A stretch of 64,000 nucleotides of DNA from a virus: positions 124,878-188,877 of IMG/VR virus record IMGVR_UViG_3300025030_000039; one strand, written 5' to 3'. Within the stretch, counting starts at the first letter, position 1, and the number at the start of each line of letters is the position of its first letter. Shown in pieces: positions 11-60,327 of the stretch. Position numbers and translations under genes: made by a program. The notes beneath the pieces are model-generated. The model had not been told where the DNA came from. It worked only from the letters and a program-made list of their open reading frames with translations, and ran no database searches.

Positions 11-616
11 ATGAAATATATTAAAGACTATAACGATTTTATTAATGAAGCTAAATTACCTGATGTAAATTTAAATCCATTATATTTAGAAGCTAAAGAA
101 AGTAAAAGATATAAAGAGTTAATTGAATTAGAAGTAAAAGATATATCTACATTACAACAATAAAAGAATGGTTCATTTCAATTTTCTCCATTATTTAGAA
201 TCAAAGAAGTTCAAACATTAAAAGATAATCCTTTGGTTAAAAAGCAACCTAAAGAAAAAATTTTAGATTATGATTTAATTTTAAATAATGAATTTAATAA
301 ATTTGAAATTTTTCAATGTCGTAAAAAAAGTGTTAGATTAAAACATGGATCTGGAACATATGCAGGTTTAAATATTGGAAAAATTGGAAAAAAATATACT
401 AACTATAATGATGCTTTGGAATTTATAATAAATACTATAAAAAAAGATAAAAAGAATGTTGAAGATATTGTAAAATATTGGAAACAAGAAATAAAAAATA
501 ATATGTCAGTTATTAGTATAGTTAGAAAAATATTTGAACTTGAATTTATTAAAAAATATTTTAATATACCAGATCATTTAATTAATGCTGATGATTTTGG
601 ATTCTTAGATAATTAA
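11..616 (+). pseudogene. MKYIK-N-terminal / ADDFGF-C-terminal family gene interrupted by a single in-frame TAA (161-163); N-part 11-163, C-part 164-616
   Basis: ATG at 11 encodes MKYIKDYNDFINE...STLQQ then TAA. The same frame stays open through the track ORF 233-616, which the track starts at an internal TTG. That ORF ends ...INADDFGFLDN, matching the C-terminus of the LRR paralogue at 9476-10165. Confidence 0.5.
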
Positions 617-631
617 AAATAAAATATTGAT

Positions 632-1015
632 ATGAAATACATAAAAGAGTATAGTGAATTTGTTAATGAATCAGTCGGAACTCCATTGACATTATATACA
701 GCAAGAGCTTCTAGTTATTTATCTCAACAATTAAAAATAGTTAAGGCTATTGAAGATAAAAAAACTCTTATGAATAAACCTAATACGGATAACGAAACAC
801 GAAAAACATTACAGGAGCATATAGCAGTCTTAAAAGAAAAGGAGGAAAAGATTAAACTGAATCTTGATAAGGCTATAGAAAAAGCTAGTGAAAAAGTTAA
901 AAAATTACCACAAGCTAAAAGAAATGCTTTAATGAAAATGGGAGAATCTGAAAAAGAAAAGGTTGATAAAATTAAAGAACAAATAATAGAGCTAAAACAA
1001 ATAAAGAGGAATTAA
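632..1015 (+). CDS. MKYIK-N-terminal family protein, Lys/Glu-rich and probably coiled-coil
   Basis: N-terminus MKYIKEYSEFVNES is shared with the ORFs at 11, 9476-10165(-), 47133 and 47553. Confidence 0.55.
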   Translation: MKYIKEYSEFVNESVGTPLTLYTARASSYLSQQLKIVKAIEDKKTLMNKPNTDNETRKTLQEHIAVLKEKEEKIKLNLDKAIEKASEKVKKLPQAKRNALMKMGESEKEKVDKIKEQIIELKQIKRN

Positions 1016-1029
1016 TTCCTCTTTATTTT

Positions 1030-1227
1030 TTAATTTTGTGACTCATCTTTAAATACAGGCCATTGAGCTCCATCTATTCGCATTTTTAAATAAGTAATAT
1101 GTTCCTTTAACATTTGATTAATTAATTCTAATTCTTGAAATTTATTACTTAAATGTTCATAGCCTTTTTCAACAACTAATAAACGCATTTCTAATCCTTT
1201 AATATGTTTAATATCCATTTCACTCAT
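1030..1227 (-). CDS. hypothetical small protein (65 aa)
   Basis: ORF abuts the S1-like gene on the same strand. Confidence 0.3.
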   Translation of the reverse strand: MSEMDIKHIKGLEMRLLVVEKGYEHLSNKFQELELINQMLKEHITYLKMRIDGAQWPVFKDESQN

Positions 1228-1229
1228 AA

Positions 1230-2399
1230 TTAAACTTTTTTAAATTCTATTTTTTTATTATCTATATCTATTTTAGAAATAATTACTTCTATTTCTTCAT
1301 TTTCTTTTAATTCAATACCTTCAAATTCTGATATATGAAGTAAACCTACAATGCTTTTTTCTAATTCGATAAATGCACCATAGTTTTTAATTGATGTTAT
1401 TCTACCTTTTGCTTTGCTTAAAGGTGGATATTTTTTATCTATATCTACCCATAAATCTTTTTGTAATTGAGTTAAAATTATTTTATTTTCATTTATAATA
1501 TCTTTAACTAAAAATTTAACTTTATCTCCAGCTTTAATACTTCTATTATTGAATTTATTTAACCATTCATCATTTAATTCATTCATAGGAATTAAACCAG
1601 TTAAACAACCAAATTGCGCAAATATTCCAAATTTTGTAGTTCCAGTAATAAATCCTTCATATTCATCATTAATATTATCTCTAATTTTATCTAAATTATT
1701 TCCAACTTGTGTTTTTAGATATTCTCTATGAGATACTACTATAGTACCTTTTTCTTTAGAATAATTTATAGGCATTACAATTAATTCTTTTCCTATAAGA
1801 GAATTAAAATCAATTAATTTATTCATTCCACCTAAAGATCCTGGCATAAATACTTCTATACTGTCAATTTTTAAAAGATAACCACCGTGAATTAATTCTT
1901 TTACTATTGCTTTATATGCAACAGGTTTTCCTACTGAATCTAAAATTTCTTGGAATTTATTATCTTTAATAGCATCTGAAAATGATGCTCTAAAATCATT
2001 ACTATTATTTTTTGAAATTTTTACTTTAATTTCATTACCTACTTGTAAAAGATCAGAATATTTTTTATCTTCTTTTTTAAGGTTTAACGTTACTGTATGT
2101 TTACTGTCTACTTCTAAGCAAGCATCTTCTTTATTAATTGAAACTATCTTTGCTGTTATCGTACTTCCATTTTGCAATTCAGTATATTCAAAGTCATTAT
2201 TAGGACCATTTGTATATAACTCATATGCTTCTTTTACATAAGATTCATCACTAAAGATTTTTGTTTTTCTTGGGATTTCTAATTCTACGAATTCTTCTTC
2301 GAATGGATTGTGTACGTTAGTTTTAATTTTTACTTTTGTTAACATTTTAAAAATAATTAAGGGTTGATAATGGATTAATCTAGGTGCATTTGGATGCAT
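1230..2399 (-). CDS. ribosomal protein S1-like protein with about four S1 RNA-binding domains
   Basis: S1 signatures GRITSIKNYGAFIELEKSIVGLLHISEF and GFITGTTKFGIFAQFGCLTGLIPMNEL. The segment GGYLLKIDSIEVFMPGSL...GKELIVMPINYSKEKGTIVVSHREYL aligns with Firmicute-type 4-domain RpsA. Confidence 0.65.
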   Translation of the reverse strand: MHPNAPRLIHYQPLIIFKMLTKVKIKTNVHNPFEEEFVELEIPRKTKIFSDESYVKEAYELYTNGPNNDFEYTELQNGSTITAKIVSINKEDACLEVDSKHTVTLNLKKEDKKYSDLLQVGNEIKVKISKNNSNDFRASFSDAIKDNKFQEILDSVGKPVAYKAIVKELIHGGYLLKIDSIEVFMPGSLGGMNKLIDFNSLIGKELIVMPINYSKEKGTIVVSHREYLKTQVGNNLDKIRDNINDEYEGFITGTTKFGIFAQFGCLTGLIPMNELNDEWLNKFNNRSIKAGDKVKFLVKDIINENKIILTQLQKDLWVDIDKKYPPLSKAKGRITSIKNYGAFIELEKSIVGLLHISEFEGIELKENEEIEVIISKIDIDNKKIEFKKV

Positions 2400-2542
2400 C
2401 CTATTAAATCTAATTTATTAATATAATAGGTACTATTATTTGCAATATGCGTTAAATAAGAGTGTACGTTTAATTTCGTTGTAACATTCATTAATGTTTA
2501 AATTAAAGGATTAAAAAATATATATCATAGGGACTTTTAAAA

Positions 2543-3817
2543 TTATTTAGCTTCACCTTCTCCAGTTTCATCGTCAGTACCATTAGATGGATCAGTTTTA
2601 AGTATTATAGTATCTCCAGAAGCAGATAATATTTCAGCTGTTAATTTTGTTCCTAAATCAGCATGAAAAAATTCTATTTGATTTCCAACTTTAAATGCCT
2701 TAGAAGGATCTGCTTTTTCATTATCTAATTTTAATGCTTTACTAGATGCTACATATCCTAAAACTTTAAATGGTGGTTGAGATGGAACACCAGCTGGAAA
2801 AAATAAACCTAAAATAGTTTCAGGTTTCAATAATCCAATCATCCATTTTATTATACATTGAACTAACAATAAAAAAGATATTATTTTATCAAATCCTGGA
2901 TATGATACTGCCATATCCATTAATTCATCTATTGTTAATTTAGGTGCTCCTATTTTAAATATTCTATCAAAAAATGCTTGAACACCTGCTGCTATACCAC
3001 TTATATCTACAACAGGAGGTGCAAATGATTTAGCTATTTCAGCTATAACGGGACCTAATATATCACCAATCATTCCTAATACAAATCCAACAGGGTCAGA
3101 TGCAATTTCAGTTAATTTATTTACTGCTGCTATAATATCAGTAGTTAAATCTTTTACAATATCTACTACAGCTTTAATAAGTCCTATTGCAAATTTAATA
3201 GGTAAAAATATTATTCCAATTATCTTAACATAAGGTATAAGATCAGTTAATAATTTACCAAATCCATCTATAGGAATATTCAATAATTGCATTACTTGAT
3301 CAATAATTTCTTGACCTAATGCTTGCAATGTATCTGGTATTAAAAGCTTAGCCTCATCTAACCATTTTTTCCAATCTATATCTGTTAATGTTAATGTATT
3401 TACTATTATATCTATTATAGCATCACCACTTGGAATAGGAACCATTAAAAAATCAAAAGGTTTTAATAATTTTGAAATTATAAATTCAACAACACTCATT
3501 GGTAAATTTGCTAATAAATCACTAATAGCACTTACAAGAGCAGCTACTTTACCGGCAAATTCAGCAGGAGCTTCTATACCAGCTTTTAATGCTTCTGTTA
3601 CAGCAGAAACTAAACCTATTAAAGGTTCATACGGAGTAGTAATACCTTTTTCAAAACTTCTTATTATAGTTTTTACTAAAGCACCCATACCTGGCTTTTC
3701 TGTATTCATATCTATTTCTAAACCTGAATCTTTTAAACAACTACCCAAGTCATCTATCATTTGTTGTAATTGTGAATCTTGTATCAATACTGGGTTTAAA
3801 CCAAAATCTGCTGCCAT
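2543..3817 (-). CDS. hydrophobic alpha-helical protein immediately downstream of the spike gene (tape-measure-like or membrane-active; function unknown)
   Basis: 424 aa rich in I/L/A/G/V with amphipathic stretches such as LIPYVKIIGIIFLPIKFAIGLIKAVVDIVKDL; sits 3 nt after the spike ORF. Confidence 0.4.
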   Translation of the reverse strand: MAADFGLNPVLIQDSQLQQMIDDLGSCLKDSGLEIDMNTEKPGMGALVKTIIRSFEKGITTPYEPLIGLVSAVTEALKAGIEAPAEFAGKVAALVSAISDLLANLPMSVVEFIISKLLKPFDFLMVPIPSGDAIIDIIVNTLTLTDIDWKKWLDEAKLLIPDTLQALGQEIIDQVMQLLNIPIDGFGKLLTDLIPYVKIIGIIFLPIKFAIGLIKAVVDIVKDLTTDIIAAVNKLTEIASDPVGFVLGMIGDILGPVIAEIAKSFAPPVVDISGIAAGVQAFFDRIFKIGAPKLTIDELMDMAVSYPGFDKIISFLLLVQCIIKWMIGLLKPETILGLFFPAGVPSQPPFKVLGYVASSKALKLDNEKADPSKAFKVGNQIEFFHADLGTKLTAEILSASGDTIILKTDPSNGTDDETGEGEAK

Positions 3818-3820
3818 AAT

Positions 3821-4603
3821 TTATTCTGTAAAAGATTTAGTACTTAATGGTGTTTCAAAGCCCATAGATATAGGGGTACCTGTGGGCGAACCTAAATTTC
3901 CGATGTGACAGTGCCCGTCAAATATAGGTTTAAAGCTCGTTCCTTGTACAAGAGCTTCTGCTGCAGCTGCCCCTAATTTTATTTTAGTTGCTTCTACTTC
4001 AGCTGTTCCAGATACTGTTAATGTTGCATCACCAGAACATTCACCTACTATGTTAACGCATTTAACGTTTATGTCAGCAGCTACTTCTAAGTTAACTGTG
4101 CCATCTGCTAATATTTCAAATAAATCTCCATTAGGATTTGTAATATGAAAGTTATTGTCAGGATCTAAATTAATTATAGTTTCTTTATAATCTATACTTA
4201 ATCCTTTTCCTTGTGTAAAATAAATTTTTAAAGCTTCATCTGTATCAAATATTAAAGAATGAAAATTTATAGGATCTGTTTTAATTTCTTCTTTTAATTC
4301 ATCAGAAATTCTTTGATGAAAAAAGTATTCAGGATGATAAATATTACCATTATCAAATTTAATTGATACTATAGATCCAACTCTTGGAACTGAATAATAA
4401 CCACCACCTGTTATTGATCCAGCTGTAGTATTATTAGCAGGATAAGCCCATGGAATATGTTCATTCGATAAATTATCAAATTTACCATATACTTTTACTT
4501 TTATTCTTCCTTCATATTGAGGATCTTCATTAACAACTACTTCACCTAACCAAGTAGATGTTGTTAAATTGTCACTATAATATTCTTCTTGTGTTAGTCT
4601 CAT
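3821..4603 (-). CDS. baseplate central spike, gpV/gp5(VgrG)-type N-terminal OB-fold with a C-terminal beta-helix and HxH apex
   Basis: LGEVVVNEDPQYEGRIKVKV...IPWAYP...TAGSITGGGYYSVPRVGSIVSIKFDNGNIYHPEYF matches the conserved gpV / phage baseplate assembly V pattern. The C-terminal GHCHIGNLGSPTGTP resembles the metal-binding HxH tip of P2 gpV-type spikes. Confidence 0.7.
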   Translation of the reverse strand: MRLTQEEYYSDNLTTSTWLGEVVVNEDPQYEGRIKVKVYGKFDNLSNEHIPWAYPANNTTAGSITGGGYYSVPRVGSIVSIKFDNGNIYHPEYFFHQRISDELKEEIKTDPINFHSLIFDTDEALKIYFTQGKGLSIDYKETIINLDPDNNFHITNPNGDLFEILADGTVNLEVAADINVKCVNIVGECSGDATLTVSGTAEVEATKIKLGAAAAEALVQGTSFKPIFDGHCHIGNLGSPTGTPISMGFETPLSTKSFTE

Positions 4604-4605
4604 AA

Positions 4606-6285: not shown

Positions 6286-6289
6286 TTTC

Positions 6290-7556
6290 TATATTTTATT
6301 TTGATGCGATGTAGTTTAATTTAAAATTAGAGGGACCACATACTCCTCTATGTAAAATATTCACTGCTGCATTATAATCTGCATCAATCTCTATTTTACA
6401 GCTTGAACATAAATAAACTTCACCTTTACGACTCTCTTTATCTATATTCGCGCATTTTGAACAAGTCTGGCTAGTATACGCTGGATTCACCTGCTTAATA
6501 AAGAAACCTTCTTCCTCGGCCAATAAATTTAATCTAGCATACACCTTTGGATAACTCCATCGCTGTATCTTATTCATTATTTTGTTATTTATATATTTGT
6601 TTGAATTATATTTAACATTTTTTAATTCTTCAATAATCAATTGATCGGGACTTTCATTTCTTATAAACTCTTTAACAGTTACATTAATTAACTCATCTCT
6701 TTCAATCAATGCTCTTTTAAATGATTTACTACCTTGCTCTTTTCTAGCTATCTTATAATAAATATTAAATAATTCTTTTCCATAATGTTCTCCTGAACTA
6801 GAAGATATTAATTTTTTATATCCTGTATCTATTCCTATAGACTTAATTATTTCTTTCTTTTTAGGTTCTTTCTTTTCCCATATTAAATCTATAAAAAATT
6901 TATCATCTTTTTTTCTTAATATTATTGTATTCTTTCTGTTCCAATTTTCGTTTATAAACCTATTACTTTGTCTATAATGCTTAATAGGAATATTAATTTT
7001 AACTGATAAATGTTTATTATCTTGAAAATAAGGAGTTTTAATTCTAATAAATTCATCAAATATATTTCCTTTTTTAATATCAAATAATCTATTATCAATA
7101 TACAATGAAACATTTTTAATTTGAATTTTTGGAATTCTTTTGATATAATTTATGTTTAATTCACTAAATCTTTTAGATGTAAAGTTTTGATGAATATTAT
7201 TTTTTATACATTTAGAATAAAGATATTTATATTTTTTATAAACTTTATTTTTAGATTTTTCTGTAGTACTTTTAATTATTTCAATTGCTTGTTTATATAT
7301 AATATGTTTCCATTGAGAGTGTTTAAAAATATAATTTGGTAAAATTTTAGATGATATAAATTTTTCAAAAGGTAAAGTTTTGTTTAAAATTAGATCGATA
7401 TAATATTGAAGCATTAGTTTATAATCATTATAGAATTGATCTATAATATTTAATTTTTCTTTATTTGAAAAACTTAAAACATGCTTACTCGTTCTTATCA
7501 TAATATATTTTCTTTAATAAATAAAAATTTTAATCAAATTGATGCGATGTACTCTC
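6290..7556 (-). mobile_element. IS1341-type (tnpB-only) insertion sequence, copy A, flanked by the 13-bp direct repeat TTGATGCGATGTA (6304-6316 and 7542-7554)
   Basis: About 90% aa identity to copy B. DNA identity to copy B ends right after GGTCCCTCTAATT at the 3' end on the minus strand. Confidence 0.55.
6296..7501 (-). CDS. tnpB: TnpB (IS200/IS605-family OrfB, RuvC-like nuclease with Zn finger), copy A
   Basis: RuvC-I SIGIDTGY, RuvC-II IIEELKNV, Zn finger CSKCANIDKESRKGEVYLCSSC, RuvC-III EIDADYNAAVNILHRG. Confidence 0.85.
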   Translation of the reverse strand: MIRTSKHVLSFSNKEKLNIIDQFYNDYKLMLQYYIDLILNKTLPFEKFISSKILPNYIFKHSQWKHIIYKQAIEIIKSTTEKSKNKVYKKYKYLYSKCIKNNIHQNFTSKRFSELNINYIKRIPKIQIKNVSLYIDNRLFDIKKGNIFDEFIRIKTPYFQDNKHLSVKINIPIKHYRQSNRFINENWNRKNTIILRKKDDKFFIDLIWEKKEPKKKEIIKSIGIDTGYKKLISSSSGEHYGKELFNIYYKIARKEQGSKSFKRALIERDELINVTVKEFIRNESPDQLIIEELKNVKYNSNKYINNKIMNKIQRWSYPKVYARLNLLAEEEGFFIKQVNPAYTSQTCSKCANIDKESRKGEVYLCSSCKIEIDADYNAAVNILHRGVCGPSNFKLNYIASK

Positions 7557-9549: not shown

Positions 9550-10165
9550 TCACCTTTAACTTTCTTATTAACTCATACTTTATATATAAACTAGAATCTT
9601 GACTTAACCAATTATCAACTATATAATCTATATTATTTATATTTAATATTTTTAAATTTAAATCTAATAATTCTATAGGTAATATTGATGATTCATTATT
9701 TTTAAAATTAATTGATATATCTAATATATTTAAATTTTTTAATTTTAGCAATATAGTTGGAAAAGTAATAAAATTATTTTTAGATAAATATAAACCTCCT
9801 AAATTTTTTAAATTACCTATTTCCTTCGGCAACTCAGTTAATTGATTATCATGCAAATATAAATCTTTTAATTTTTCTAATTTTCCTATTTCTTTAGGTA
9901 ACTCCTTTAAATTATTATTAAATGCAGTTAATATTTTTAAATTTTTTAAATTACCTATCTCTTTTGGTAATTGTGTTAATTTATTGTTATATAAAAATAA
10001 ACGTTCTAAATTTTTCAATTTACCTATTTCTTTAGGTAAGTCATTTATATTTTTATCATTTAATCCTAAATCTTTTATATTTAAATCTTTTAATATTAAA
10101 TTTAAAATTTTTTCACTTTGCTTTGATTCATTTAAAAAATCCTTATATTTTTTAATATATTTCAT
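9476..10165 (-). CDS. leucine-rich repeat protein with MKYIK-type N-terminus and ADDFGF C-terminus
   Basis: About six 23-aa repeats of the form LPKEIGxLKNLxxLxLxxNxLxx. N-terminus MKYIKKYKDFLNES; C-terminus LLYNADDFGFFGFKK. Confidence 0.8.
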   Translation of the reverse strand: MKYIKKYKDFLNESKQSEKILNLILKDLNIKDLGLNDKNINDLPKEIGKLKNLERLFLYNNKLTQLPKEIGNLKNLKILTAFNNNLKELPKEIGKLEKLKDLYLHDNQLTELPKEIGNLKNLGGLYLSKNNFITFPTILLKLKNLNILDISINFKNNESSILPIELLDLNLKILNINNIDYIVDNWLSQDSSLYIKYELIRKLKVSDWVRKKYDLLYNADDFGFFGFKK

Positions 10166-12019: not shown

Positions 12020-13225
12020 ATAGTTATTTTTTAATTAGAGGGACCATATACTCCTCTATGTAAAATATTCACTGCTGCATTATAATCTGCATCAATCTCT
12101 ATTTTACAACTTGAACATAAATAAACTTCACCTTTACGACTCTCTTTATCTATATTCCCGCATTCTGAACAAGTCTGGCTAGTATACGCTGGATTCACCT
12201 GCTTAATAAAGAAACCTTCTTCCTCGGCCAATAAATTTAATCTAGCATACACCTTTGGATAACTCCATCGCTGTATCTTGCTCATTATTTTGTTATTTAT
12301 ATATTTGTTTGATTTATGCTTAACATTTTTTAATTCCTCAATAATCAACTGATCAGGACTTTCATTTTTTATAAACTCTTTAACAGTTACATTAATTAAT
12401 TCATCTCTTTCAATCAATGCTCTTTTAAATGATTTACTACCTTGCTCTTTTCTAGCTATCTTAGCATAAATTTCAAATAAATTTCTTCCATAATACTCTC
12501 CTGAACTAGAAGATATTAATTTTTTATATCCTGCATCTATTCCTACCGATTTAATTATTTCTTTCTTTTTAGGTTCTTTCTTTTCCCATATTAAATCTAT
12601 AAAAAATTTATTATCTTTTTTTCTTAATATTATTGTATTCTTTCTTTTCCAGTTTTCGTTTATAAACCTATTACTATACATATGATATTTAATTGGAATA
12701 TTAATTTTAACTGATCTATATTTATTATCTTGAAAATATGGAGTATATAATTTTATAAATTCATCAAATTTATATCCTTTTTCAATATTAAATAATCTAT
12801 TATCAATATGCAATGAAATATTTTTAATCTGAATTTTTGGAATTCTTTTTATATAATTAATATTTAATTCATTAAATCTTTTAGATGTAAAATTTTGATG
12901 AATATTGTTTTTTATGCATTTAGAATAAAGATATTTATATTTTTTATAAACTTTATTTTTAGATTTTTCTGTAGTACTTTTAATTATTTCAATTGCCTGT
13001 TTATATACTATTTGTTTCCATACAGAATGATTAAAAATATAATTTGGAAGTTCTTTAGATGACAGAAATTTTTCAAAAGATAAAGTTTTGTTTAAAATTA
13101 GATCGATATAATATTGAAGCATTAGTTTATAATCATTATAGAATTGATCTATAATATTTAATTTTTCTTTATTTGAAAAACTTAAAACATGCTTACTTGT
13201 TCTTATCATATAATATATATTTGAA
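12020..13225 (-). mobile_element. IS1341-type insertion sequence, copy B, intergenic
   Basis: Ends inferred from where similarity to copy A stops. Confidence 0.5.
12031..13209 (-). CDS. tnpB: TnpB (IS200/IS605-family OrfB), copy B
   Basis: The first 40 aa are identical to copy A. Zn finger CSECGNIDKESRKGEVYLCSSC and all three RuvC motifs are present. Confidence 0.85.
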   Translation of the reverse strand: MIRTSKHVLSFSNKEKLNIIDQFYNDYKLMLQYYIDLILNKTLSFEKFLSSKELPNYIFNHSVWKQIVYKQAIEIIKSTTEKSKNKVYKKYKYLYSKCIKNNIHQNFTSKRFNELNINYIKRIPKIQIKNISLHIDNRLFNIEKGYKFDEFIKLYTPYFQDNKYRSVKINIPIKYHMYSNRFINENWKRKNTIILRKKDNKFFIDLIWEKKEPKKKEIIKSVGIDAGYKKLISSSSGEYYGRNLFEIYAKIARKEQGSKSFKRALIERDELINVTVKEFIKNESPDQLIIEELKNVKHKSNKYINNKIMSKIQRWSYPKVYARLNLLAEEEGFFIKQVNPAYTSQTCSECGNIDKESRKGEVYLCSSCKIEIDADYNAAVNILHRGVYGPSN

Positions 13226-26040: not shown

Positions 26041-26149
26041 TATTATAATTCTTTTTTTTATATATTTGTGCAATATAGAACATTTAATCATTTTCAGGAA
26101 GTTTAGATGATATATAATTTATATAAAAAAATAATATAAAATTAAAACA

Positions 26150-27352
26150 CTTAAACTTAAAATAAAAAACCTTTCTAAACCTAACTATTCTAAACTTCTA
26201 GAACAATGCAACCATTCGAGAGCCCTTTATAATTCGGCTCTCTATATAGCAAATGAACATTACAAACAAACTCTTTCCTATATCGGCTACAACGACCTCT
26301 ATAAAGAACTTAAAGACAACATCCATTACAACTCACTCAACAAACCAACAGCTCAACAAATCATCAAGCTTGTAGACAAGAACTTTAAATCATTTTTCGC
26401 TCTACTTAAAAAGAAAAAATCCAACATTTCTCTAGGCCAAATTAATTCACCTCAATATAAAAAGTCCGATTCATTATTTAATTTGATTAAGCCAATTCAG
26501 AAAGAGAGTAATTCAATAAGAAAGGGATTTTTAAATATTTATAATTGGCTTAAGATACCATATACGCATGAAATAGACGGAAGCATTAAGCAATTTACAA
26601 TCAAACCTATAAACAATGGTCAGTTTTTTTATTTGTATATTGTTTATGAAGAAAATAAAAAAGAAGAAGTAAAAATAAGTAAAAATAAGTATTTAAGTAT
26701 AGATTTAGGCATTAATAATTTGATGGCTACATTCGATTCAACTGGACGTTCAATAATAATAAACGGTAAACCTCTTAAAGCATATAACAGTTGGTTCAAT
26801 ATAAAGAAATCAAGTATTCAATCCGAGCTAGAAATAAAAAATAAGAAGAAATGGAGTAAAAGATTACAGAATTTAAATGAAGATAGAAAGAATTTTATAA
26901 ATAATTATTTTAATCAGTCAGTAAATAAAATAATTAAGCATTGTATCGTTAATGATATTGGAACAGTAATTGTTGGATATAATAAGAAATGGAAACAGGA
27001 TACCAAAGAGTTAGGTAAAAAATTTAATCGTAAATTCCAACAAATTCCACATTTTATATTGAAAGAGAAGTTGAGTAATAAATGTAGTGATTATGGGATA
27101 GATTTAGTATTTCATGAAGAGAGTTATACTAGTAAGTGCGATGCATTAGCGATAGAGAAATTAAAGAAACAGGATGTTTATTTAGGTAAGAGAATTAAGA
27201 GAGGATTGTTTCAGTCAAGTGTAGGAAAGTTGATAAATGCTGATATAAATGGAGCGATGAATATAATGAGAAAAGTAGTCAGTGATTCTCTTTTTAAAGG
27301 GATAATTGATAACAGGTTAATAGTACAACCTTTAATGATTAACATCTTATAA
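26150..27352 (+). mobile_element. TnpB-like RuvC nuclease gene lacking the Zn finger; the reading frame is open from about 26150 with no ATG before the Met at 26483 (5'-truncated or non-canonical start)
   Basis: The upstream in-frame translation ...LEQCNHSRALYNSALYIANEHYKQ...AQQIIKLVDKNFKSFFALLKKKK is a TnpB N-domain. RuvC-I SIDLGINN, RuvC-II HEESYTSK, RuvC-III INADINGAMNIMRK. No CxxC...CxxC between RuvC-II and RuvC-III. Confidence 0.6.
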
Positions 27353-31685: not shown

Positions 31686-31922
31686 TTAATTTAATTTAAA
31701 AAAGATTGGGATTATTTAAATCCCAATGCTTTCATACGTCTTATAAGTTCTTCTGAAATTTTTTGTATTATATTATCCTTTGTTTTTTGTCTTTTTTGTA
31801 CGAGAGAATCTATTTGTACTTGAGAATTTATTTCTAGATCTTTATATATTGTTACTGGATCTTTAAAAACTCCTTCAATTGATGTATATGGTTCATATTG
31901 TGGTAATCTATGTGAACCATAA

Positions 31923-31944
31923 GTACCAAAATTAGAAGGGGCCC
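31923..31944 (-). terminator. GC-rich hairpin GAAGGGGC-CCGAAA-GCCCCTTC just 3' of the AAA ATPase gene; candidate terminator or structured RNA
   Basis: The only strongly GC-rich perfect stem-loop in the window; a weak T-run follows on the minus strand. Confidence 0.4.
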
Positions 31945-31974
31945 GAAAGCCCCTTCCAATAGATTCTCTCTTAA

Positions 31975-33453
31975 TTACAAATTTTTGACCTTATGTAAAA
32001 TTTCTTCAACTTTTTCTGGTCCAAATAATGTTATAAAGGTTTCTCCAGTTATTTCAGCTTTAGATTTCTCTTTTTTGCCTTCAGTTAAAGCAATATGTTG
32101 CTTAAATGATTCTGCTGCTACTTCAATATCCTCAGGGGTAAGTTTTGAACTTTTTCCTCCTTCACGATACATAGCATACATTTTAGCTTTGTTAATTACT
32201 TCTGTTGCAAAAGCTGGAACAATACCTGATAATGATTTTGCAGCTATTGAATAATCTTTATCTTGATAGATGATTGATTTACCTTCAGCATTTCTTGCGA
32301 ATTTTTTAATAAATTCTAAAGCTGTATCTTCATCAAGTGCACCCATTAAAATTAAACTGTCGATACGACCGGCACGTAAAAATGCTTTATTGATATTCTC
32401 AAGATGATTTGTTGTAAGAATAGTAATGATTGGTTTATCTTTAGTATCCATTCCATCAAGTGTATTAAGAATGTCATTGATAGCTGCTGTTCTTGTTCCT
32501 TCTGTTGCTTTATCGATATCTTCGGCAAATATTACAGCAGGAGCGTACATTTCAGCAAGTCTTAATGCATTTTTTAATTGAGAGCATTGTTCTAAATAAA
32601 TAAAAGTCCAATTATTTTCAACTGCAATTTTTGATGTTCCTCTTGCTAAGAAAGTTTTTCCGGTACCATAAGGTCCTGCAAGAAGACAACCATGTTTTAA
32701 TGGAATTTTATTTTTGATACATTCGTCAGTTCTTTGAATTCTCAATAATACAGATGAAAAATCTTTTCTTGCTGTTTTAGTTAAAAGAATATCTTCCCAT
32801 TTAACTTTAGATACATCAATAAAATTTGGATTTGGTGGAAAAACATTTGTATTCTCCATAAAACTTAAATCAACTTTAAAAGCTTTTCCTTTATAGATAC
32901 TTTCTTCAGCTAAAATTCTTTGAGTTTCGTCAGCAATTTTTTGAGTAACTTCTTCGAATTTTCTTTTAATTTTTCCGGAAATTTTAAATTCCATTGTTGC
33001 ATTATTGTATTTAGTTTCAAGATATGAATCGCTATCCATACCAGGAAATTGCATACGTCCCCAAGGAACTTTAATATGTGAACCATCAGGAAGTTTAATG
33101 TCAATCATTTCAGGTGGTTCAGCTCCTGAAGGACCATTAACTGAAGTTAAATCGGCAAATCCAAATAAGTTAGTAATTGCTTTGTACATAGCATACGCTC
33201 CATCAAATGGATATGCTTTCATAGAAGCATTAAAATTAACTTGCTGTTCTTCTGATTCTTCTTTTCTTTTCAACCATTTACGAGCATCGTCATATCCCAT
33301 GCCTTCTGGAAGAATAATTTTAGTACCAGAGCGAACAATGTCAACGGATTTAAACTCTACTTTTTTGCTTCCGCCTTTTCCTAAAATTTCATCATAAAGT
33401 TCTTGATGAACTCCAAAAGGTTTTTCTTTTGTTTTTTCGAGTGTGTCATTCAT
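31975..33453 (-). CDS. AAA+ ATPase (single AAA module, ~250-aa N-terminal extension)
   Basis: Walker A GPYGTGKTF, Walker B AVIFAEDIDKA, second region of homology TTNHLENINKAFLRAGRID. Confidence 0.8.
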   Translation of the reverse strand: MNDTLEKTKEKPFGVHQELYDEILGKGGSKKVEFKSVDIVRSGTKIILPEGMGYDDARKWLKRKEESEEQQVNFNASMKAYPFDGAYAMYKAITNLFGFADLTSVNGPSGAEPPEMIDIKLPDGSHIKVPWGRMQFPGMDSDSYLETKYNNATMEFKISGKIKRKFEEVTQKIADETQRILAEESIYKGKAFKVDLSFMENTNVFPPNPNFIDVSKVKWEDILLTKTARKDFSSVLLRIQRTDECIKNKIPLKHGCLLAGPYGTGKTFLARGTSKIAVENNWTFIYLEQCSQLKNALRLAEMYAPAVIFAEDIDKATEGTRTAAINDILNTLDGMDTKDKPIITILTTNHLENINKAFLRAGRIDSLILMGALDEDTALEFIKKFARNAEGKSIIYQDKDYSIAAKSLSGIVPAFATEVINKAKMYAMYREGGKSSKLTPEDIEVAAESFKQHIALTEGKKEKSKAEITGETFITLFGPEKVEEILHKVKNL

Positions 33454-44641: not shown

Positions 44642-44670
44642 GGTAAATATAATAAAAAAGTTTTAATTAT
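44642..44670 (-). promoter_or_regulatory. conserved upstream motif, instance 2 (GGTAAATATAATAAAAAAGTTTTAATTAT), about 23 nt before the ATG at 44617
   Basis: Motif family. Confidence 0.45.
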
Positions 44671-44969
44671 TATAATTTTTCGAAACATTTTAAAATAATA
44701 GAACATTTTTCATATTCTTCTATTTCAATATAATAGTTCTTTAGTTCTTCCAAAATTATATTCCAATTATTTCTATGACATTTTATTTGCATAAGTTTAG
44801 ATCCTTTTAATTCTAAATAAAAAATAGGCATTAATAAAATATCATTATTTATTCCATAGATAATAGCGTTATATAAATTATTATATAACAAATCTTTATT
44901 AGCAGTTAATTGGCCAAAAGCTTCATTAACTGTATTGCAGTTCATAAGTTTAAAAGTAGATAATTGCAT
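44670..44969 (-). CDS. hypothetical protein (99 aa)
   Basis: ORF. Confidence 0.35.
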   Translation of the reverse strand: MQLSTFKLMNCNTVNEAFGQLTANKDLLYNNLYNAIIYGINNDILLMPIFYLELKGSKLMQIKCHRNNWNIILEELKNYYIEIEEYEKCSIILKCFEKL

Positions 44970-52859: not shown

Positions 52860-52877
52860 AATTAAGGTGTTTAAAGA

Positions 52878-53648: not shown

Positions 53649-53658
53649 AATATAAATT

Positions 53659-53934
53659 CTATTTTTTAATTTCTTCTAAATCATTTTTATCAGCATAAAA
53701 TTTAACGAATGGATCCATTTTAAATGATTTTACAAAATCAAATTGGTCTTTTTTAGGAATTTCATCTAAAATATTTCTTATTTGAGAAGTATCATTAATT
53801 ATAAAACCACCAGTCATAAATTTTTTTCCATCTTTTTCAATTAGAATTAAATTATTTGTTTTATCTATTGCATTTGATATTAATATTGCTTCTTCGTAGC
53901 CGTTTGTTGATGGAGTTATATGTAAAATTTTCAT
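53659..53934 (-). CDS. hypothetical protein (91 aa)
   Basis: ORF. Confidence 0.35.
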   Translation of the reverse strand: MKILHITPSTNGYEEAILISNAIDKTNNLILIEKDGKKFMTGGFIINDTSQIRNILDEIPKKDQFDFVKSFKMDPFVKFYADKNDLEEIKK

Positions 53935-53955
53935 ACGAATATATTTAAAGTTAAT

Positions 53956-53990
53956 TTGTAAAAGTGTCCTAAATTAGGACACTTTTACAA
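53956..53990. promoter_or_regulatory. perfect 15-bp-arm palindrome TTGTAAAAGTGTCCT-AAATT-AGGACACTTTTACAA between the OmpA-fusion gene and the downstream ABC genes; operator or terminator
   Basis: Seen directly in the sequence. Confidence 0.45.
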
Positions 53991-54003
53991 ATTCTTATTT
54001 ATA

Positions 54004-55818: not shown

Positions 55819-55851
55819 TGTTAATAGAATTTAAAATTAATAAATAAAAGT

Positions 55852-56958
55852 TTAAAATATATCATTAAATCCACCGCTTTTTAATTTATCTTGGTGTGTC
55901 AATTGATATTCAGGATTACTGTATTGTTTAGCATCAGGTAACTCATAACTACCAGTTTTGATATCATTAGCTAAAACATCTAAGTTTGCATATAAAGTAT
56001 CGCTATCTCCATTTAATGCATATTGTGCAGTTAATGAATCAATATCATTAAGATTTCCGGATGTTATAGCAATATCTTGTGCAATAGTAGAAGTAACTAC
56101 ATCTAATGCATATTCAAGTTCCCATGTTTTAGTAAACATCATAGCAGATTTAGCACTTTCAGTAGCTTGTCGGGATTTTTGTGCAAAGTCATAATCTTTT
56201 TTCAAAATTTCAATAGTTGCATCAAAATCAGATACTTTAATATCCATTGTTGTTTCAACCATTATAAGTTTATGACTAAATTTTTTCATAATATTAGCTC
56301 TTGTTCCATATTTTTGAATAAATTCAGTTTCTTGTGTAAGCTTATTACTTATACGAGCACTATCAGATAATAATTTACGAAATTCTGAATCAGTATTAAC
56401 ATATTCATCAGTTCCTTTTGCTGCAGGACCTCCGGTTTTTACCATATCATCTAATTGATCTTTTAATTTTTGTGCTTTTGCTTGTATAGATACAACATCT
56501 GTTTGTAATTTTTTAGCTGTCTTCTCGGACTTATCAGCTTCTATTTCCATTTCATTTTTTAAATTCAAAATCTTTCCTTTTGCTTGTTGAAATTTTTGTT
56601 TATTTTGATACATTAAATCTCTTTGATGATATAATTCTGCAAATGGATCGTGTTTTATAATTGCTTTATGCAAATTTCGAGTTAATACTCTTATTCCTTT
56701 AAGAATAACTGGCATTGCAATTATAAGTCCAAGTAATAATATTCCTGTTGTTGCTACAGCAAGAAATTGACCGATTGCTTGAAAAACTACAGGCAATACA
56801 TATACCCATAAACCATAACCAACAGCTCCTGCTGCTGCTAATTTAATAAAGAAATTTAATCCTTTTTCTCCTTTTCTCCAACTTGTTATATTTTTAGATA
56901 TATCGCTATCTTCAAAATGTTTAAAAATTGGTAAACTTTTTAAATTGCTATTGTCCAT
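55852..56958 (-). CDS. membrane protein with two N-terminal transmembrane helices and a long coiled-coil domain
   Basis: Transmembrane segment LAAAGAVGYGLWVYVLPVVFQAIGQFLAVATTGILLLGLIIAMPVIL, followed by a helical Lys/Glu/Gln-rich region. Confidence 0.45.
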   Translation of the reverse strand: MDNSNLKSLPIFKHFEDSDISKNITSWRKGEKGLNFFIKLAAAGAVGYGLWVYVLPVVFQAIGQFLAVATTGILLLGLIIAMPVILKGIRVLTRNLHKAIIKHDPFAELYHQRDLMYQNKQKFQQAKGKILNLKNEMEIEADKSEKTAKKLQTDVVSIQAKAQKLKDQLDDMVKTGGPAAKGTDEYVNTDSEFRKLLSDSARISNKLTQETEFIQKYGTRANIMKKFSHKLIMVETTMDIKVSDFDATIEILKKDYDFAQKSRQATESAKSAMMFTKTWELEYALDVVTSTIAQDIAITSGNLNDIDSLTAQYALNGDSDTLYANLDVLANDIKTGSYELPDAKQYSNPEYQLTHQDKLKSGGFNDIF

Positions 56959-56962
56959 AATT

Positions 56963-57724
56963 CTATTTTAAATTGTTAATAATTCCATTTTTAACTTTAG
57001 TTATTGATCCCAATATTACATCTTTAGCGTGATCATTTGCCATTAATTTACAATCAATTTCAGTTAATTGAGTTGAATATTTAGAATCAATTTGTGATAA
57101 TAAACTTTCTTTTGACTGTATTTGATTTTTAATACTTTCTAATTGCATTTTTAAATTATCTAATTCTGCAACTAAATTTTTATTTTCATTTTCTTTTTGA
57201 TTAGTTACTTCATTTCTTTTTGTTTGACCTTTATCAACATAAGTTTTATATACTTTATTAATTTCAGTTATATAAAAATCTGATTGTGATAATAATGATT
57301 CTTTAGAAACTGTTTTATCAATTCCTTTAGCCATCATTAAAGCCATATTATAGATTTGTGGATTATCAATACCTGCACTAATAATAGATTGATAATATTC
57401 GAAAAAATCATATCCTGTCATATTTAATCCTTCAAATCCTTGCTCATACATCTTCATTACTGAATCAATATGAGGTTGACATACAGGATTAACTTCAGTT
57501 AGATTAGTATTTATAACAATTTTTTCAATATTAACAGTATTAGGAAAAGTAGTTTTTTGTTGTGTATTAGCAGTATTTGGAAAAGTAGAAGTACTTTTAT
57601 TTGGTTCAATTTTTTTAGATTGTTCCTCTACTTTATCATTAACGAAAAAAAGATCTTTAAAACCCATATTACTATTTTTAAAATTTATAATGTTGAGCAC
57701 GTTTAAACTTAAAACATTTATCAT
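56963..57724 (-). CDS. coiled-coil protein (253 aa)
   Basis: ORF with heptad-like Lys/Glu/Leu/Gln composition in its C-terminal half. Confidence 0.4.
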   Translation of the reverse strand: MINVLSLNVLNIINFKNSNMGFKDLFFVNDKVEEQSKKIEPNKSTSTFPNTANTQQKTTFPNTVNIEKIVINTNLTEVNPVCQPHIDSVMKMYEQGFEGLNMTGYDFFEYYQSIISAGIDNPQIYNMALMMAKGIDKTVSKESLLSQSDFYITEINKVYKTYVDKGQTKRNEVTNQKENENKNLVAELDNLKMQLESIKNQIQSKESLLSQIDSKYSTQLTEIDCKLMANDHAKDVILGSITKVKNGIINNLK

Positions 57725-57899
57725 CTATATCTAAATGATATTCTAATTGATCTAATGAATTTATAAAATTATTAGATATAAAAGTATTAGATAATCTTGC
57801 AATAATATAATCTTTTTTAACATTAAGAGTATAAAATTTATCGCATCCTATAAGAAAATCTAAAAATTCTTTTTCTATATGTTCTATTTTTTCAGCCAT
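57678..57899 (-). CDS. hypothetical protein (73 aa)
   Basis: ORF. Confidence 0.3.
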   Translation of the reverse strand: MAEKIEHIEKEFLDFLIGCDKFYTLNVKKDYIIARLSNTFISNNFINSLDQLEYHLDIDDKCFKFKRAQHYKF

Positions 57900-58069
57900 A
57901 ATATAAATTTAGCGATTAATATTCCAACAACAATAAATATAGCAGCAAGTATAAACATCGAAATACCTATAACAAATTTAAAGATAGTCATTCCAATTAT
58001 ATATGCGCATATAATAATAATAATTATTACTACCGAATATAAAATTAATTTTATTTTATTTTTTATCAT
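57884..58069 (-). CDS. small two-transmembrane membrane protein (61 aa), holin-like topology
   Basis: Two hydrophobic helices and a basic C-terminus KFILWLKK. Preferred over the antisense ORF 57879-58124 because the upstream motif sits at 58120-58150. Confidence 0.35.
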   Translation of the reverse strand: MIKNKIKLILYSVVIIIIIICAYIIGMTIFKFVIGISMFILAAIFIVVGILIAKFILWLKK

Positions 58070-58119
58070 CTTATCTTTTATTAATCGGTTTCTGACGTAT
58101 CCTAATTATTTTAATTATT

Positions 58120-58150
58120 GGTAAATATAATAAAAAAGTTTTTAATTAAA
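58120..58150 (-). promoter_or_regulatory. conserved upstream motif, instance 5 (GGTAAATATAATAAAAAAGTTTTTAATTAAA)
   Basis: Motif family. Confidence 0.45.
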
Positions 58151-58164
58151 ATTTAAAGTTTAAT

Positions 58165-58479
58165 TTATTTCCAGTCGGCATTTGGCTTATTAAATTCTTC
58201 ACTATAATCAGGATCGGGATGAGCTATTTGATCTTTATATTCTTCTTTTAATTTATCTTGTTGTTCTAATAAAGCATTCCAATTATACATTACACCTGAT
58301 CGTTCTTTTATACCAACTTCTGTATAATTAAAATGATCTTTAGATAAAAAATCATTATGCTTAATTTTATTAATGATAGCTTTGCCTCCAGCAAAATCGT
58401 CTTCTCCTCTATATACATAACATGCGCCTGGAACATAAATTTCTTGTCCTTCTATTGGTTCAATTTTTTTATTTTTCAT
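58165..58479 (-). CDS. hypothetical protein (104 aa)
   Basis: ORF. Confidence 0.4.
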   Translation of the reverse strand: MKNKKIEPIEGQEIYVPGACYVYRGEDDFAGGKAIINKIKHNDFLSKDHFNYTEVGIKERSGVMYNWNALLEQQDKLKEEYKDQIAHPDPDYSEEFNKPNADWK

Positions 58480-58589
58480 AATCTAATATTTCTTTTAAAT
58501 TAATTTTTATACCTTCTTTTTGACCATTTAGATGTTCGACGTATAAATTATTACTGTCTAACAGTAATTTGTTATAAATTTAATAATTA

Positions 58590-58620
58590 AAATAAATATA
58601 ATAATAAAGATTTTAATTTA
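58590..58620. promoter_or_regulatory. conserved upstream motif, instance 6 (AAATAAATATAATAATAAAGATTTTAATTTA)
   Basis: Motif family. Confidence 0.4.
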
Positions 58621-58690
58621 AAAATATTACTAAATTTTATATAAAACTATAAAGGCTTAATGATATATAAATAAATTAATATTTTAAACA

Positions 58691-59104
58691 ATGGAAGATT
58701 TTAAGTTACTAAAACTGTCAAGAGCGTGTAAAGAGTTTAATGTTACTAGACAGACTTTATATAATTGGAAGGAAAAGGGTGTGTTGAATTTTGTAAAAAT
58801 CGGTGGTTTGAATTTTATAAAAGAAGAAGATATAAAAGCATTAATTAATAAATAATTGAAGACAATTAAGTTGTCATATAAAACTTATAAAGATAGATTA
58901 AGTAGAATAGGTTTTGATTTTTTAAAAACACTTTTTGAGAAATTTACATGTGAGATAGAAGTTATATCTGAAGTAGGTTCTGCTAAACTTGATTCTGAAG
59001 AAATTTTTGAGGAAATAGTTCATTTACTTCATTGTTATAGTATGAAATTGTACTCAAGCAGACGTAATAAAAATATAGAAGACATATGCAAAGTGGAGAA
59101 CTAA
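58691..59104 (+). pseudogene. tnpA: IS607 TnpA serine recombinase remnant: HTH (58691-58855), in-frame TAA, then a C-terminal fragment (58856-59104); the catalytic core is deleted
   Basis: HTH LKLSRACKEFNVTRQTLYNWKEKGVLNFVKIGG. C-terminal fragment DRLSRIGFDFLKTLFEKFTCEIEVI...EEIVHLLHCYSMKLYSSRRNK matches resolvase C-terminal conservation. There is no YARVSS catalytic Ser region. Confidence 0.55.
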
Positions 59105-60327
59105 CTCAAGTAGAGAAACATATACTTACTTCATCTGAACTTTATGACTTAACATTTAAAGCAAAAAATCTTTATAATGCTGCTTTATGGATCATAAGAC
59201 AATCGTTCTGCAAAACTAAAGAATTAAGACACGAGTCTAAAATGATCTTCTATAACGAACTTTACACTTTGATGAAAGATCATGAAGCATATAAAGCATT
59301 ACCTGCTGTGGCTGCTTAACAAATCTTAAGAACTCTAGACAAGAACTTCAAATCTTATTTCATGTTCATTAAAGATTGGAAGAAAAATCCATCTAAATAT
59401 TTAGGTATGCCAAAGCTTCCTAACTACATGAAGAAAGATGGTCATGCAACTTTTGCAATTCCAGGACAAACTTTTAGAACATTAAAAAATGGATTAACAA
59501 TACCAAAAACTAAAGAAAAGTCATCTAACATAAAAACTAAAGTAACTAAAGAAAAATTAAAAGAAGTAAGAATCATACCACTTTCACAAAAAAATAAAGT
59601 AAAAGTAGAAGTAATATATTCTAAAGAAAAACAAAATCTTAATTTAAATAAAGAAAATGCAATAGGAATTGACATTGGTGTAAATAACTTAATGGCTATA
59701 ACTTCAAATCAGATAGATCCTCTAGTATGTCTAATAAATGGTAGACCATTAAAGTCAATAAATCAATATTTTAACAAAAAATCTACAAAACTTAAGTCAG
59801 CTTTAGAAAAATGTCAAGGAAGAAAAACATCAAGAAAACTTGAGAAATTAAATCAAAAAAGACAAAACAAAATTGATGATTATCTTCATAAAGCAAGTAA
59901 GAAAGTTATTGATTTATGTAAAGAAAATAACATCGGGACTATAGTTATAGGTCATAATAAAGAATGGAAGCAAGAATGCAACTTAGGAAAAGTTAACAAC
60001 CAAAACTTTATTCAGTTGCCTTTCAATAAGTTAATTGGTATGATAACTTACAAAGCAGATTTAATTTCTAATGATGTTAAAGTTTCTGAAGAGTCTTACA
60101 CAAGTAAAATTGATCATCTTGCTAATGAAGAAATGAAAAAACAAGAAACGTATAAAGGCAAAAGAATAAAGAGAGGATTGTTCTTAAGCAGCATTTGTAA
60201 AGTACTTAATGCAGACACAAATGGAAGCATCGGTATCTTAAGAAAAAAGAAAGCAGTTTCTAAAGAGTGGCTTGCCACTGTAGGAAATAGAGGTTGTGTG
60301 TATCAGCCATTTAAAATAAGTTTATAA
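59086..60327 (+). pseudogene. tnpB: IS607-type TnpB with an in-frame TAA (59317-59319) at a conserved Gln position
   Basis: ...YKALPAVAA*QILRTLDKNFKSYF is continuous in a single frame. RuvC-I GIDIGVNN, RuvC-II SEESYTSK, RuvC-III LNADTNGSIGI; no Zn finger. Confidence 0.6.

What the first reader, a model, noticed from the sequence alone, without database searches (positions are those of the whole stretch)
161..59319. Three disrupted genes are all interrupted by in-frame TAA rather than by frameshifts
Three in-frame TAA codons interrupt genes here. The first is at 161-163, inside the MKYIK-family gene (...TLQQ*KNG...). The second is at 58853-58855, between the IS607 TnpA HTH and the rest of the protein. 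The third is at 59317-59319 in the IS607 tnpB, where a conserved Gln (CAA) is expected (ALPAVAA*QILRTLDKNFKSYF). In each case the downstream sequence continues in the same frame with recognisable homology. The most economical reading is recent pseudogenisation by C-to-T or A-to-T changes under strong AT mutational bias. Occasional TAA readthrough or recoding cannot be excluded from sequence alone.
Basis: seen in the sequence. Interest (0 to 1): 0.5.

Follow-up and report, generated by a model that had tools for sequence, protein, structure and literature searches.

The report
Two nonsense mutations, one normal stop
The three TAA codons are real, but they are two ordinary nonsense mutations (in a virion-tag gene and a transposon nuclease gene) and one normal stop codon of a small conserved gene, all in a very AT-rich huge phage, so nothing points to recoding.

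Summary
The window is part of the 462-kb uncultured huge phage LR756500.1 (24% GC). All three TAA codons sit where stated, but they are not one phenomenon.

- **TAA 161-163** is a real premature stop. It separates the 13-residue MKYIK N-terminal tag from a C-terminal NADDFGFLDN motif. Six paralogues carry both in one uninterrupted ORF.
- **TAA 59317-59319** is a real CAA-to-TAA nonsense change. It hits a Gln conserved in 27 of 31 homologues and both paralogues of a TnpB nuclease gene.
- **TAA 58853-58855** is not a lesion. It is the native stop of a 54-residue HTH gene present in three IS copies, under strong purifying selection (dN/dS 0.01-0.09). The next gene starts at the adjacent TTG, and in one copy it lies in another frame. 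What inactivated the IS607 TnpA is loss of its catalytic core (profile positions 46-124).

TAA ends 395 of 486 long ORFs, and there is no UUA-anticodon tRNA. A random nonsense change gives TAA with probability 0.49-0.64. Elsewhere the genome shows a TAG-interrupted gene and a truncated, frameshifted TnpB relic. This is ordinary decay with no sign of recoding.

The parts
11..616 (+). Gene of 201 codons split by a premature stop. It has the N-terminal tag MKYIKDYNDFINE and the C-terminal motif NADDFGFLDN.
   Evidence: Translation. The coding score is 0.42-0.55 bits per codon in this frame on both sides of the stop. Six paralogues carry the tag and the C-terminal motif in one ORF. There are no homologues outside this phage.
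161..163 (+). TAA no. 1: a premature stop (nonsense mutation) after codon 50.
   Evidence: The same 50-residue ORF is called on 5 contigs.
58548..58690 (+). Left end of IS copy A. It is shared at 86-89% identity with IS copies B (record 367255) and C (record 429.9 kb, minus strand).
   Evidence: blastn of the three copies. Homology runs over window 58548/58557-58894.
58691..58855 (+). A 54-residue HTH gene (Pfam HTH_17, excisionase-type) including its own stop codon.
   Evidence: Pfam E=2.2e-7 and TIGR01764 E=4e-6. There are three copies, all ending at the same TAA, with dN/dS 0.01-0.09.
58853..58855 (+). TAA no. 2: the native stop of the HTH gene, abutting the TTG start of the next gene.
   Evidence: Copies A and B read TAA|TTG. 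Copy C reads TAA-GA-TTG, so its downstream gene is in another frame yet is intact at 440 residues. TnpB2 homologues elsewhere start at this same residue (MITIKLPYKT, MKTIKMPYTT) with no HTH gene upstream.
58856..59104 (+). Chimeric 82-codon relic. The first roughly 9-13 codons are the N-terminus of TnpB2. From 58883 onwards it is the C-terminal third of an IS607 serine-recombinase TnpA.
   Evidence: Residues 10-73 match NF033518 profile positions 125-186 of 187 (E=3.9e-16), and the HTH matches positions 2-45, so positions 46-124 with the catalytic Ser are missing. The remnant is 73% identical to the intact 197-residue TnpA of L011.
59086..60330 (+). TnpB (RNA-guided endonuclease family) pseudogene of 414 codons.
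   Evidence: NF040570 scores 158.6 bits against a cut-off of 100, over residues 17-387. Pfam finds OrfB_IS605 and the TNB domain. The 31 homologues at 33-46% identity over the matching stretch have no stop.
59317..59319 (+). TAA no. 3: a nonsense mutation at a conserved Gln codon (CAA to TAA).
   Evidence: The aligned residue is Q in 27 of 31 homologues and N in 4. Both genomic paralogues read TAQQII. An independent assembly is identical here.

Best explanation
The three codons have three separate histories in a 24% GC huge phage that uses the standard code.

(1) The gene at 11-616 belongs to a phage-specific set of proteins. They share a 13-residue N-terminal tag (MKYIKEYEEFIxE, resembling the T4 capsid-targeting sequence) and a C-terminal NADDFGF motif. 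A single substitution created TAA at codon 51. It cuts the tag off from the body, so this is a young pseudogene: shown as a split gene, inferred as non-functional.

(2) IS copy A (58548 to about 60400) is a decaying composite element. Its left end, the 54-residue HTH gene and the first codons of a TnpB-like gene come from an 'HTH + TnpB2' element that has two intact copies elsewhere in the genome. This part is joined directly to the last third of an IS607 tnpA gene and to its tnpB gene. TAA 58853 is simply the HTH gene's own stop. It is followed by the TTG start of the next gene, so translational coupling is likely (inferred). TnpA lost its catalytic core by rearrangement or deletion.

(3) The tnpB gene of this defunct element then took a C-to-T change that turned a conserved Gln codon into TAA. 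The 336 codons after it are still open, so the change is recent.

That both real nonsense codons are TAA follows from codon usage rich in CAA, AAA, GAA, TTA and TAT. It needs no special mechanism.
For: - **Source and code.** The window is identical to LR756500.1 except at one locus. The genome is 24.3% GC. ORFs of at least 100 residues cover 82% of the genome under the standard code, and 395 of 486 end in TAA.
- **tRNAs.** There are 25 tRNAs. The only suppressor has anticodon CUA, and none has UUA.
- **Site 1.** Coding scores are high on both sides of the stop. All six other ORFs with the NADDFGF end also carry the tag in the same uninterrupted ORF. One paralogue aligns at both termini.
- **Site 2.** All three HTH copies end at the same TAA, with dN/dS 0.01-0.09 and dS up to 0.95. 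TnpB2 in copies B and C is intact, with dN/dS 0.12, and lies out of frame with the HTH gene in copy C. TIGR01765 matches TnpB2 from residue 4. External TnpB2 homologues start at that residue. The TnpA remnant covers only profile positions 125-186.
- **Site 3.** Q in 27 of 31 homologues, none of which has a stop.
- **Chance.** P(TAA | nonsense) is 0.49-0.64.
- **Other decay in the genome.** A DUF6794 gene carries an in-frame TAG inside the domain. A TnpB relic is truncated and frameshifted.
Against: - The site 1 gene has no homologue outside this phage, so the single-gene reading rests on paralogues and coding statistics.
- No reads were examined, so population polymorphism at the sites is unknown.
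- No expression data exist, so low-level readthrough cannot be excluded formally.
- The order of events that produced the chimeric copy A is inferred, not shown.
- With only two real events, no statement about nonsense versus frameshift bias is possible.
Confidence: 0.82

Rival explanations
1. TAA is partly or conditionally decoded, for example as Gln by a suppressor tRNA or by readthrough, so the interrupted genes still give full-length proteins.
For: Site 3 replaces a Gln and site 1 follows Gln-Gln. The phage does carry a suppressor tRNA, but for TAG. The downstream frames are still fully open.
Against: TAA terminates 81% of long ORFs. No tRNA has a UUA anticodon, and a CUA anticodon does not read UAA. 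The genome scan found no further coding region that continues in frame across a TAA without its own start, beyond site 1; site 3 fell outside that scan's criteria. Both affected genes are dispensable: an ORFan paralogue and the nuclease of a dead IS.
Confidence: 0.03
2. Site 1 is not a lesion. The 50-residue tagged ORF is complete, and 233-616 is an independent gene that starts at TTG.
For: Gene callers annotate 50-residue and 127-residue ORFs. A TTG lies at 233.
Against: Codons 164-232 score as coding in the same frame (0.42 bits per codon) with no start codon. In 6 of 6 other cases the tag and the NADDFGF end are in one ORF. The shortest intact tagged protein found is 107 residues.
Confidence: 0.1
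3. The stops are sequencing or assembly errors.
For: The source is a metagenome-assembled genome, and no reads were inspected.
Against: The same ORF structure occurs on 5-6 contigs from different assemblies. A Logan assembly of SRR1658462 is 100% identical over 4.56 kb covering sites 2 and 3. Substitution errors are rare in a consensus sequence.
Confidence: 0.02
4. At site 2 a programmed readthrough produces an HTH-TnpB (or HTH-TnpA) fusion protein.
For: In copies A and B the downstream ORF is in frame and directly abuts the TAA.
Against: In copy C the intact downstream gene is shifted by 2 nt into another frame. External TnpB2 homologues start at the same residue with ATG or TTG and have no HTH gene upstream. 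In-frame neighbours are common in this genome, with 50 such pairs.
Confidence: 0.03

Closest known systems
IS607-family insertion sequences (serine-recombinase TnpA plus TnpB)
   Same: The gene order tnpA then tnpB, with overlapping ends. The TnpA remnant matches NF033518 and is 73% identical to an intact phage-borne TnpA (L011). The TnpB matches the guided_TnpB family.
   Different: The TnpA catalytic core (profile positions 46-124) is absent. The left end and HTH come from another element. The tnpB gene carries a nonsense codon. No intact IS607 TnpA exists anywhere in the phage genome. This is a dead, chimeric copy.
Stop-codon-recoded phages (TAG or TGA read as an amino acid; from general knowledge of the literature on recoded phages)
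   Same: A huge phage with its own tRNA set, including a suppressor tRNA (CUA), and one in-frame TAG inside a DUF6794 domain.
   Different: The codon in question here is TAA, which is the dominant terminator. There is no cognate tRNA. Gene density is high under the standard code: 82% of the genome lies in ORFs of at least 100 residues.
Phage T4 capsid-targeting sequence on internal proteins (MKTYQEFIAE; PMC8442874, PMC9026906)
   Same: About 18 unrelated proteins of this phage begin with MKYIKEYEEFIxE. This shares Y-x-E-F-I-x-E with the T4 tag, including the positions reported as important for targeting (4 and 7) and processing (8 and 10).
   Different: The tag is three residues longer. Seven of these proteins also share a C-terminal NADDFGF motif, which is not part of the T4 capsid-targeting sequence as described in the papers read here. 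Packaging and cleavage are untested.
Nonsense pseudogenes in AT-rich genomes
   Same: A single substitution towards A/T creates TAA while the rest of the frame stays intact.
   Different: Nothing notable.

Membership tests
Genetic-code reassignment of TAA | The reassigned codon is rare or absent as a terminator. | tested here: not met
   395 of 486 ORFs of at least 100 residues end in TAA.
Genetic-code reassignment of TAA | A cognate suppressor tRNA (anticodon UUA) is present. | tested here: not met
   ARAGORN on the whole 462-kb genome finds 25 tRNAs. The only suppressor has anticodon CUA. Host tRNAs are unknown.
Genetic-code reassignment of TAA | Many in-frame occurrences at conserved positions across genes. 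| tested here: not met
   A codon-score scan of the genome finds one clear TAA-split coding region (site 1). Site 3 was found through homology instead.
Programmed readthrough or fusion at site 2 | The frame relation between the two ORFs is conserved among copies. | tested here: not met
   Copy C has a 2-nt spacer, so TnpB2 is in another frame, yet it is intact.
IS607-family element (intact) | A TnpA with an N-terminal HTH and a complete serine-recombinase catalytic domain. | tested here: not met
   Only NF033518 profile positions 2-45 and 125-186 are present. The score is 73.7 bits against a cut-off of 110.
IS607-family element (intact) | A TnpB gene downstream of tnpA. | tested here: met
   guided_TnpB scores 158.6 bits. 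The start overlaps the end of the tnpA relic by 19 nt.
IS607-family element (intact) | Defined element ends and insertion without target duplication. | tested here: inconclusive
   The left end is defined by homology to copies B and C. The right end was not defined, and the repeat scan was uninformative.
TnpB RNA-guided endonuclease | A family profile match above the curated cut-off. | tested here: met
   NF040570 scores 158.6 against 100. Pfam OrfB_IS605 has E=2.9e-23.
TnpB RNA-guided endonuclease | The RuvC Asp-Glu-Asp motifs are present. | tested here: met
   GIDIG, EESYTS and NADTNG line up with SIDLG, EESYTS and NADVNG of the intact L011 homologue. This was read from the sequences, not from a formal alignment.
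TnpB RNA-guided endonuclease | An uninterrupted reading frame. | tested here: not met
   TAA at codon 78.
TnpB RNA-guided endonuclease | An associated guide RNA at the 3' end. | tested here: inconclusive
   No Rfam family reaches its gathering score in the window. No specific model was built.
T4-type capsid-targeting-sequence proteins | A short conserved N-terminal tag ending in (I/L)-x-E. | tested here: met
   Consensus of 18 tags against MKTYQEFIAE.
T4-type capsid-targeting-sequence proteins | Cleavage by the prohead protease and packaging into the capsid. | not testable with these tools
   This needs virion proteomics.

The most novel reading that the evidence does not exclude
The two real nonsense TAA codons are read through at a low level (as Gln), so that the tagged protein and the TnpB are still made in small amounts.

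A separate and more likely reading concerns the 'HTH + TnpB2' unit. It may be a recombinase-less mobile element that is active in this phage population, with a small HTH protein translationally coupled to a TnpB-like nuclease. Copy A would then be a fossil of its origin inside an IS607 tnpA gene.
Probability: 0.04. Interest if true: 0.5.

Novelty: already known. Interest (0 to 1): 0.15.

Why it matters
It matters little for genetic-code biology. The shared-TAA pattern comes from codon usage and from reading a normal stop as a lesion.

The check has two practical uses. It shows that in-frame continuation after TAA is common in tightly packed AT-rich phage genomes, so it should not be taken as evidence of disruption. 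It also sorts out the IS content of this huge phage: one dead chimeric IS607 copy, two intact HTH+TnpB2 copies, and other TnpB genes.

The by-products may deserve their own look. These are the capsid-targeting-like tag family with a conserved C-terminal motif, an insertion-polymorphic TnpB element without a recombinase, and an amber suppressor tRNA alongside a TAG-interrupted gene.

Tried and rejected
- **External homologues of the site 1 protein.** The word-indexed search of 5.8 billion proteins and full HMMER against 1.84 billion representatives found only the ORF itself, plus a weak hit to a repeat protein. No orthologue comparison was possible.
- **Homologues of the HTH protein.** Only the protein itself was found.
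- **Rfam scan of the window.** No family reached its threshold, so no guide RNA was identified.
- **Repeat and promoter/terminator scans of IS copy A.** These were uninformative for the element's ends.
- **First genome scan for in-frame stops.** It was dominated by antisense shadow ORFs and was replaced by a codon-score-filtered scan.
- **A flagged 92-codon open frame after the ATPase gene (window 31715-31990, minus strand).** It was rejected as a frameshift candidate because it starts with an intrinsic terminator hairpin.
- **Comparing coding density with TAA read as sense.** This was uninformative, because removing the commonest stop merges everything.
- **Exact-product look-up of the empty-site ORF (44670-44969).** Nothing was found. 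The allele was instead supported through a Logan contig.
Full report
**Source and background**

The window is 100% identical by megablast to LR756500.1, an unannotated 462,018-bp 'uncultured phage' genome. I fetched the whole record. It has 24.3% GC. The window equals record 322381-388073 except at one locus, described below.

Under the standard code, ORFs of at least 100 residues cover 82% of the genome. Of 486 such ORFs, 395 end in TAA, 66 in TGA and 25 in TAG. The phage encodes 25 tRNAs and a tmRNA. The only suppressor tRNA has anticodon CUA (amber), and none has UUA. TAA is therefore the normal and dominant terminator.

**Observation**

TAA codons lie at 161-163, 58853-58855 and 59317-59319, each with open sequence in the same frame on both sides. 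A Logan assembly of SRR1658462 is 100% identical to window 58768-63327, covering sites 2 and 3. The 50-residue ORF ending at site 1 is called on five contigs. Assembly error is unlikely. The assemblies may share reads, so this is not independent sequencing.

**Site 1 (161-163)**

The upstream 50 codons, the 23 codons between the stop and the first possible start (TTG at 233), and the remaining 127 codons all score as coding in this frame (0.55, 0.42 and 0.50 bits per codon). The other two frames score negative and are full of stops. A run of 150 open codons has a probability of about 5e-6 at this base composition.

No homologue exists outside the phage. The 'MKYIK family' is not one protein family. 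It is about 18 otherwise unrelated ORFs that share a 13-residue N-terminal tag, with consensus MKYIKEYEEFIxE.

Seven ORFs end in NADDFGF(L/F). In the six others, the tag and this C-terminal motif lie in one uninterrupted ORF. Only the window gene has them on opposite sides of a stop. So 11-616 was one gene of 201 codons, and TAA 161-163 is a premature stop. The original codon is unknown; it follows CAA CAA.

**Site 2 (58853-58855)**

The 54-residue ORF 58691-58855 is a complete HTH_17 (excisionase-type) domain. It occurs three times in the genome:
- copy A, in the window;
- copy B, at record 367386;
- copy C, at record 429913 on the minus strand.

All three end at the same TAA. Substitutions between copies are mostly synonymous (16 to 5, 8 to 4 and 14 to 1). 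That gives dN/dS of 0.01-0.09 with dS up to 0.95. The gene is therefore old and under selection, and the stop is old too.

In copies B and C the next gene is an intact 440-residue TnpB-like protein, which I call TnpB2. It matches TIGR01765 from residue 4 and also TIGR01766. B against C gives dN/dS of 0.12. Its TTG start abuts the TAA in copies A and B. In copy C a 2-nt spacer follows the TAA and puts TnpB2 in another frame. TnpB2 homologues in two other viral contigs start at the same residue (MITIKLPYKT with ATG, MKTIKMPYTT with TTG) and have no HTH gene upstream. The in-frame continuation is therefore incidental. Genome-wide, 50 neighbouring coding segments are separated by a single in-frame stop.

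Copy A shares only its left 345 bp or so with B and C (window 58548-58894, 86-89% identity). It then switches to other sequence. The 82-codon ORF after the TAA starts with the TnpB2 N-terminus (LKTIKLSYKT). It continues as the last third of an IS607 TnpA:
- residues 10-73 match NF033518 profile positions 125-186 of 187 (E=3.9e-16);
- the HTH matches positions 2-45;
- positions 46-124, which include the catalytic serine, are missing.

The remnant is 73% identical to the C-terminus of an intact 197-residue TnpA that sits next to a TnpB homologue in viral contig L011. No intact IS607 TnpA exists anywhere in this phage genome. The tnpA gene was thus destroyed by a rearrangement or deletion, not by a stop codon. 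The order of events is inferred. Either TnpB2 inserted into tnpA and a deletion followed, or two elements recombined.

**Site 3 (59317-59319)**

The 414-codon frame 59086-60330 matches the guided_TnpB family at 158.6 bits (cut-off 100) over residues 17-387, across the stop. Thirty-one homologues in viral contigs have no stop in the aligned stretch. The residue aligned to the TAA is Q in 27 and N in 4. Two paralogues in the same genome read TAQQII at this point. This is a CAA-to-TAA (C-to-T) nonsense change. The RuvC motifs and the 336 downstream codons are intact, so the change is recent.

**Is the pattern more than chance?**

I used the codon usage of the phage's long ORFs to find which stop codon a single-base nonsense change would create. 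The fraction giving TAA is 0.56 with uniform mutation, 0.49 with transitions only, and 0.64 with GC-to-AT changes only. Two out of two therefore has a probability of 0.24-0.41.

A codon-score scan of the genome for coding regions without a start recovered site 1. It also recovered a DUF6794 gene whose domain (E=1.6e-26) is interrupted by an in-frame TAG at a Trp position, at record 394894-394896 on the minus strand. In addition, a TnpB relic at record 432718-432992 is truncated at its 5' end and frameshifted.

**Comparison with what is known**

The closest known kinds are decaying IS607/TnpB elements and plain nonsense pseudogenes in AT-rich genomes. Reassignment of TAA fails every defining test made here: terminator usage, cognate tRNA and recurrence. 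Programmed readthrough at site 2 fails the test of frame conservation.

The N-terminal tag resembles the T4 capsid-targeting sequence MKTYQEFIAE (PMC8442874; PMC9026906) at the Y, F, I and E positions. That is a lead, not a tested membership.

**Verdict**

The codons are real, but the unifying pattern is not. Two are ordinary nonsense mutations in dispensable genes. The third is a normal stop codon next to a rearranged transposase gene. Interest is low, and several side observations are listed separately.

Noticed in passing
window 11-49, 632-670, 10127-10165 (minus strand); about 15 more across LR756500.1: About 18 otherwise unrelated ORFs begin with the same 13-residue tag, MKYIKEYEEFIxE. 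It resembles the T4 capsid-targeting sequence MKTYQEFIAE. Seven of them also end in NADDFGF(L/F)DN. Several are leucine-rich-repeat-like proteins. These may be proteins packaged into the capsid and ejected into the host.
   Followed up: partly
window 44875-44881, inside ORF 44670-44969 (minus strand); record 367255-368954: The GenBank record carries a 1.7-kb IS (copy B: HTH plus an intact 440-residue TnpB2) that the window lacks. The window has 7 nt (AAATTAT) in its place, plus two SNPs at 44914 and 44919. A Logan contig from SRR1658462 carries the window's SNPs and ends exactly at the junction. The element is therefore insertion-polymorphic in the population, although the phage encodes no intact serine recombinase.
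   Followed up: partly
LR756500.1 110652-110720 (minus strand) and 394894-396 (minus strand), outside the window: There is an amber suppressor tRNA (anticodon CUA). A DUF6794 gene has an in-frame TAG at a position where the flanking sequence (RNN-x-GLW) suggests Trp. TAG is the rarest terminator, ending 25 of 486 long ORFs. This may be a case of suppressor-dependent expression.
   Followed up: partly
window 26135-27352 (+) and record 221.7-222.9 kb: Two nearly identical TnpB paralogues (36% identical to the site 3 TnpB) have no ATG, GTG or TTG at their N-terminus. The frame opens as TAA TAT AAA ATT AAA ACA, so an ATT start is possible.
   Followed up: no
window 6296-7501 (minus strand) and 12031-13209 (minus strand): Two intact TnpB genes of the type carrying C-x-x-C pairs, 90% identical in protein sequence, sit among large, apparently structural genes. 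The structural assignment is judged by eye from the translations and was not tested. A truncated and frameshifted relic of the same type lies at record 432718-432992.
   Followed up: no
window about 31945-31966 (minus strand): A GC-rich hairpin, AAGGGGC-TTTCGG-GCCCCTT, followed by a T-rich run lies directly after the AAA-ATPase gene (31975-33453). It is probably an intrinsic terminator. It lies inside an open frame that my scan had flagged.
   Followed up: partly
window 58853-58858; record copies B and C: The HTH stop and the TTG start of the next gene abut in copies A and B (TAATTG) and are 2 nt apart in copy C (TAAGATTG). This suggests translational coupling between the small HTH protein and TnpB2.
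   Followed up: no
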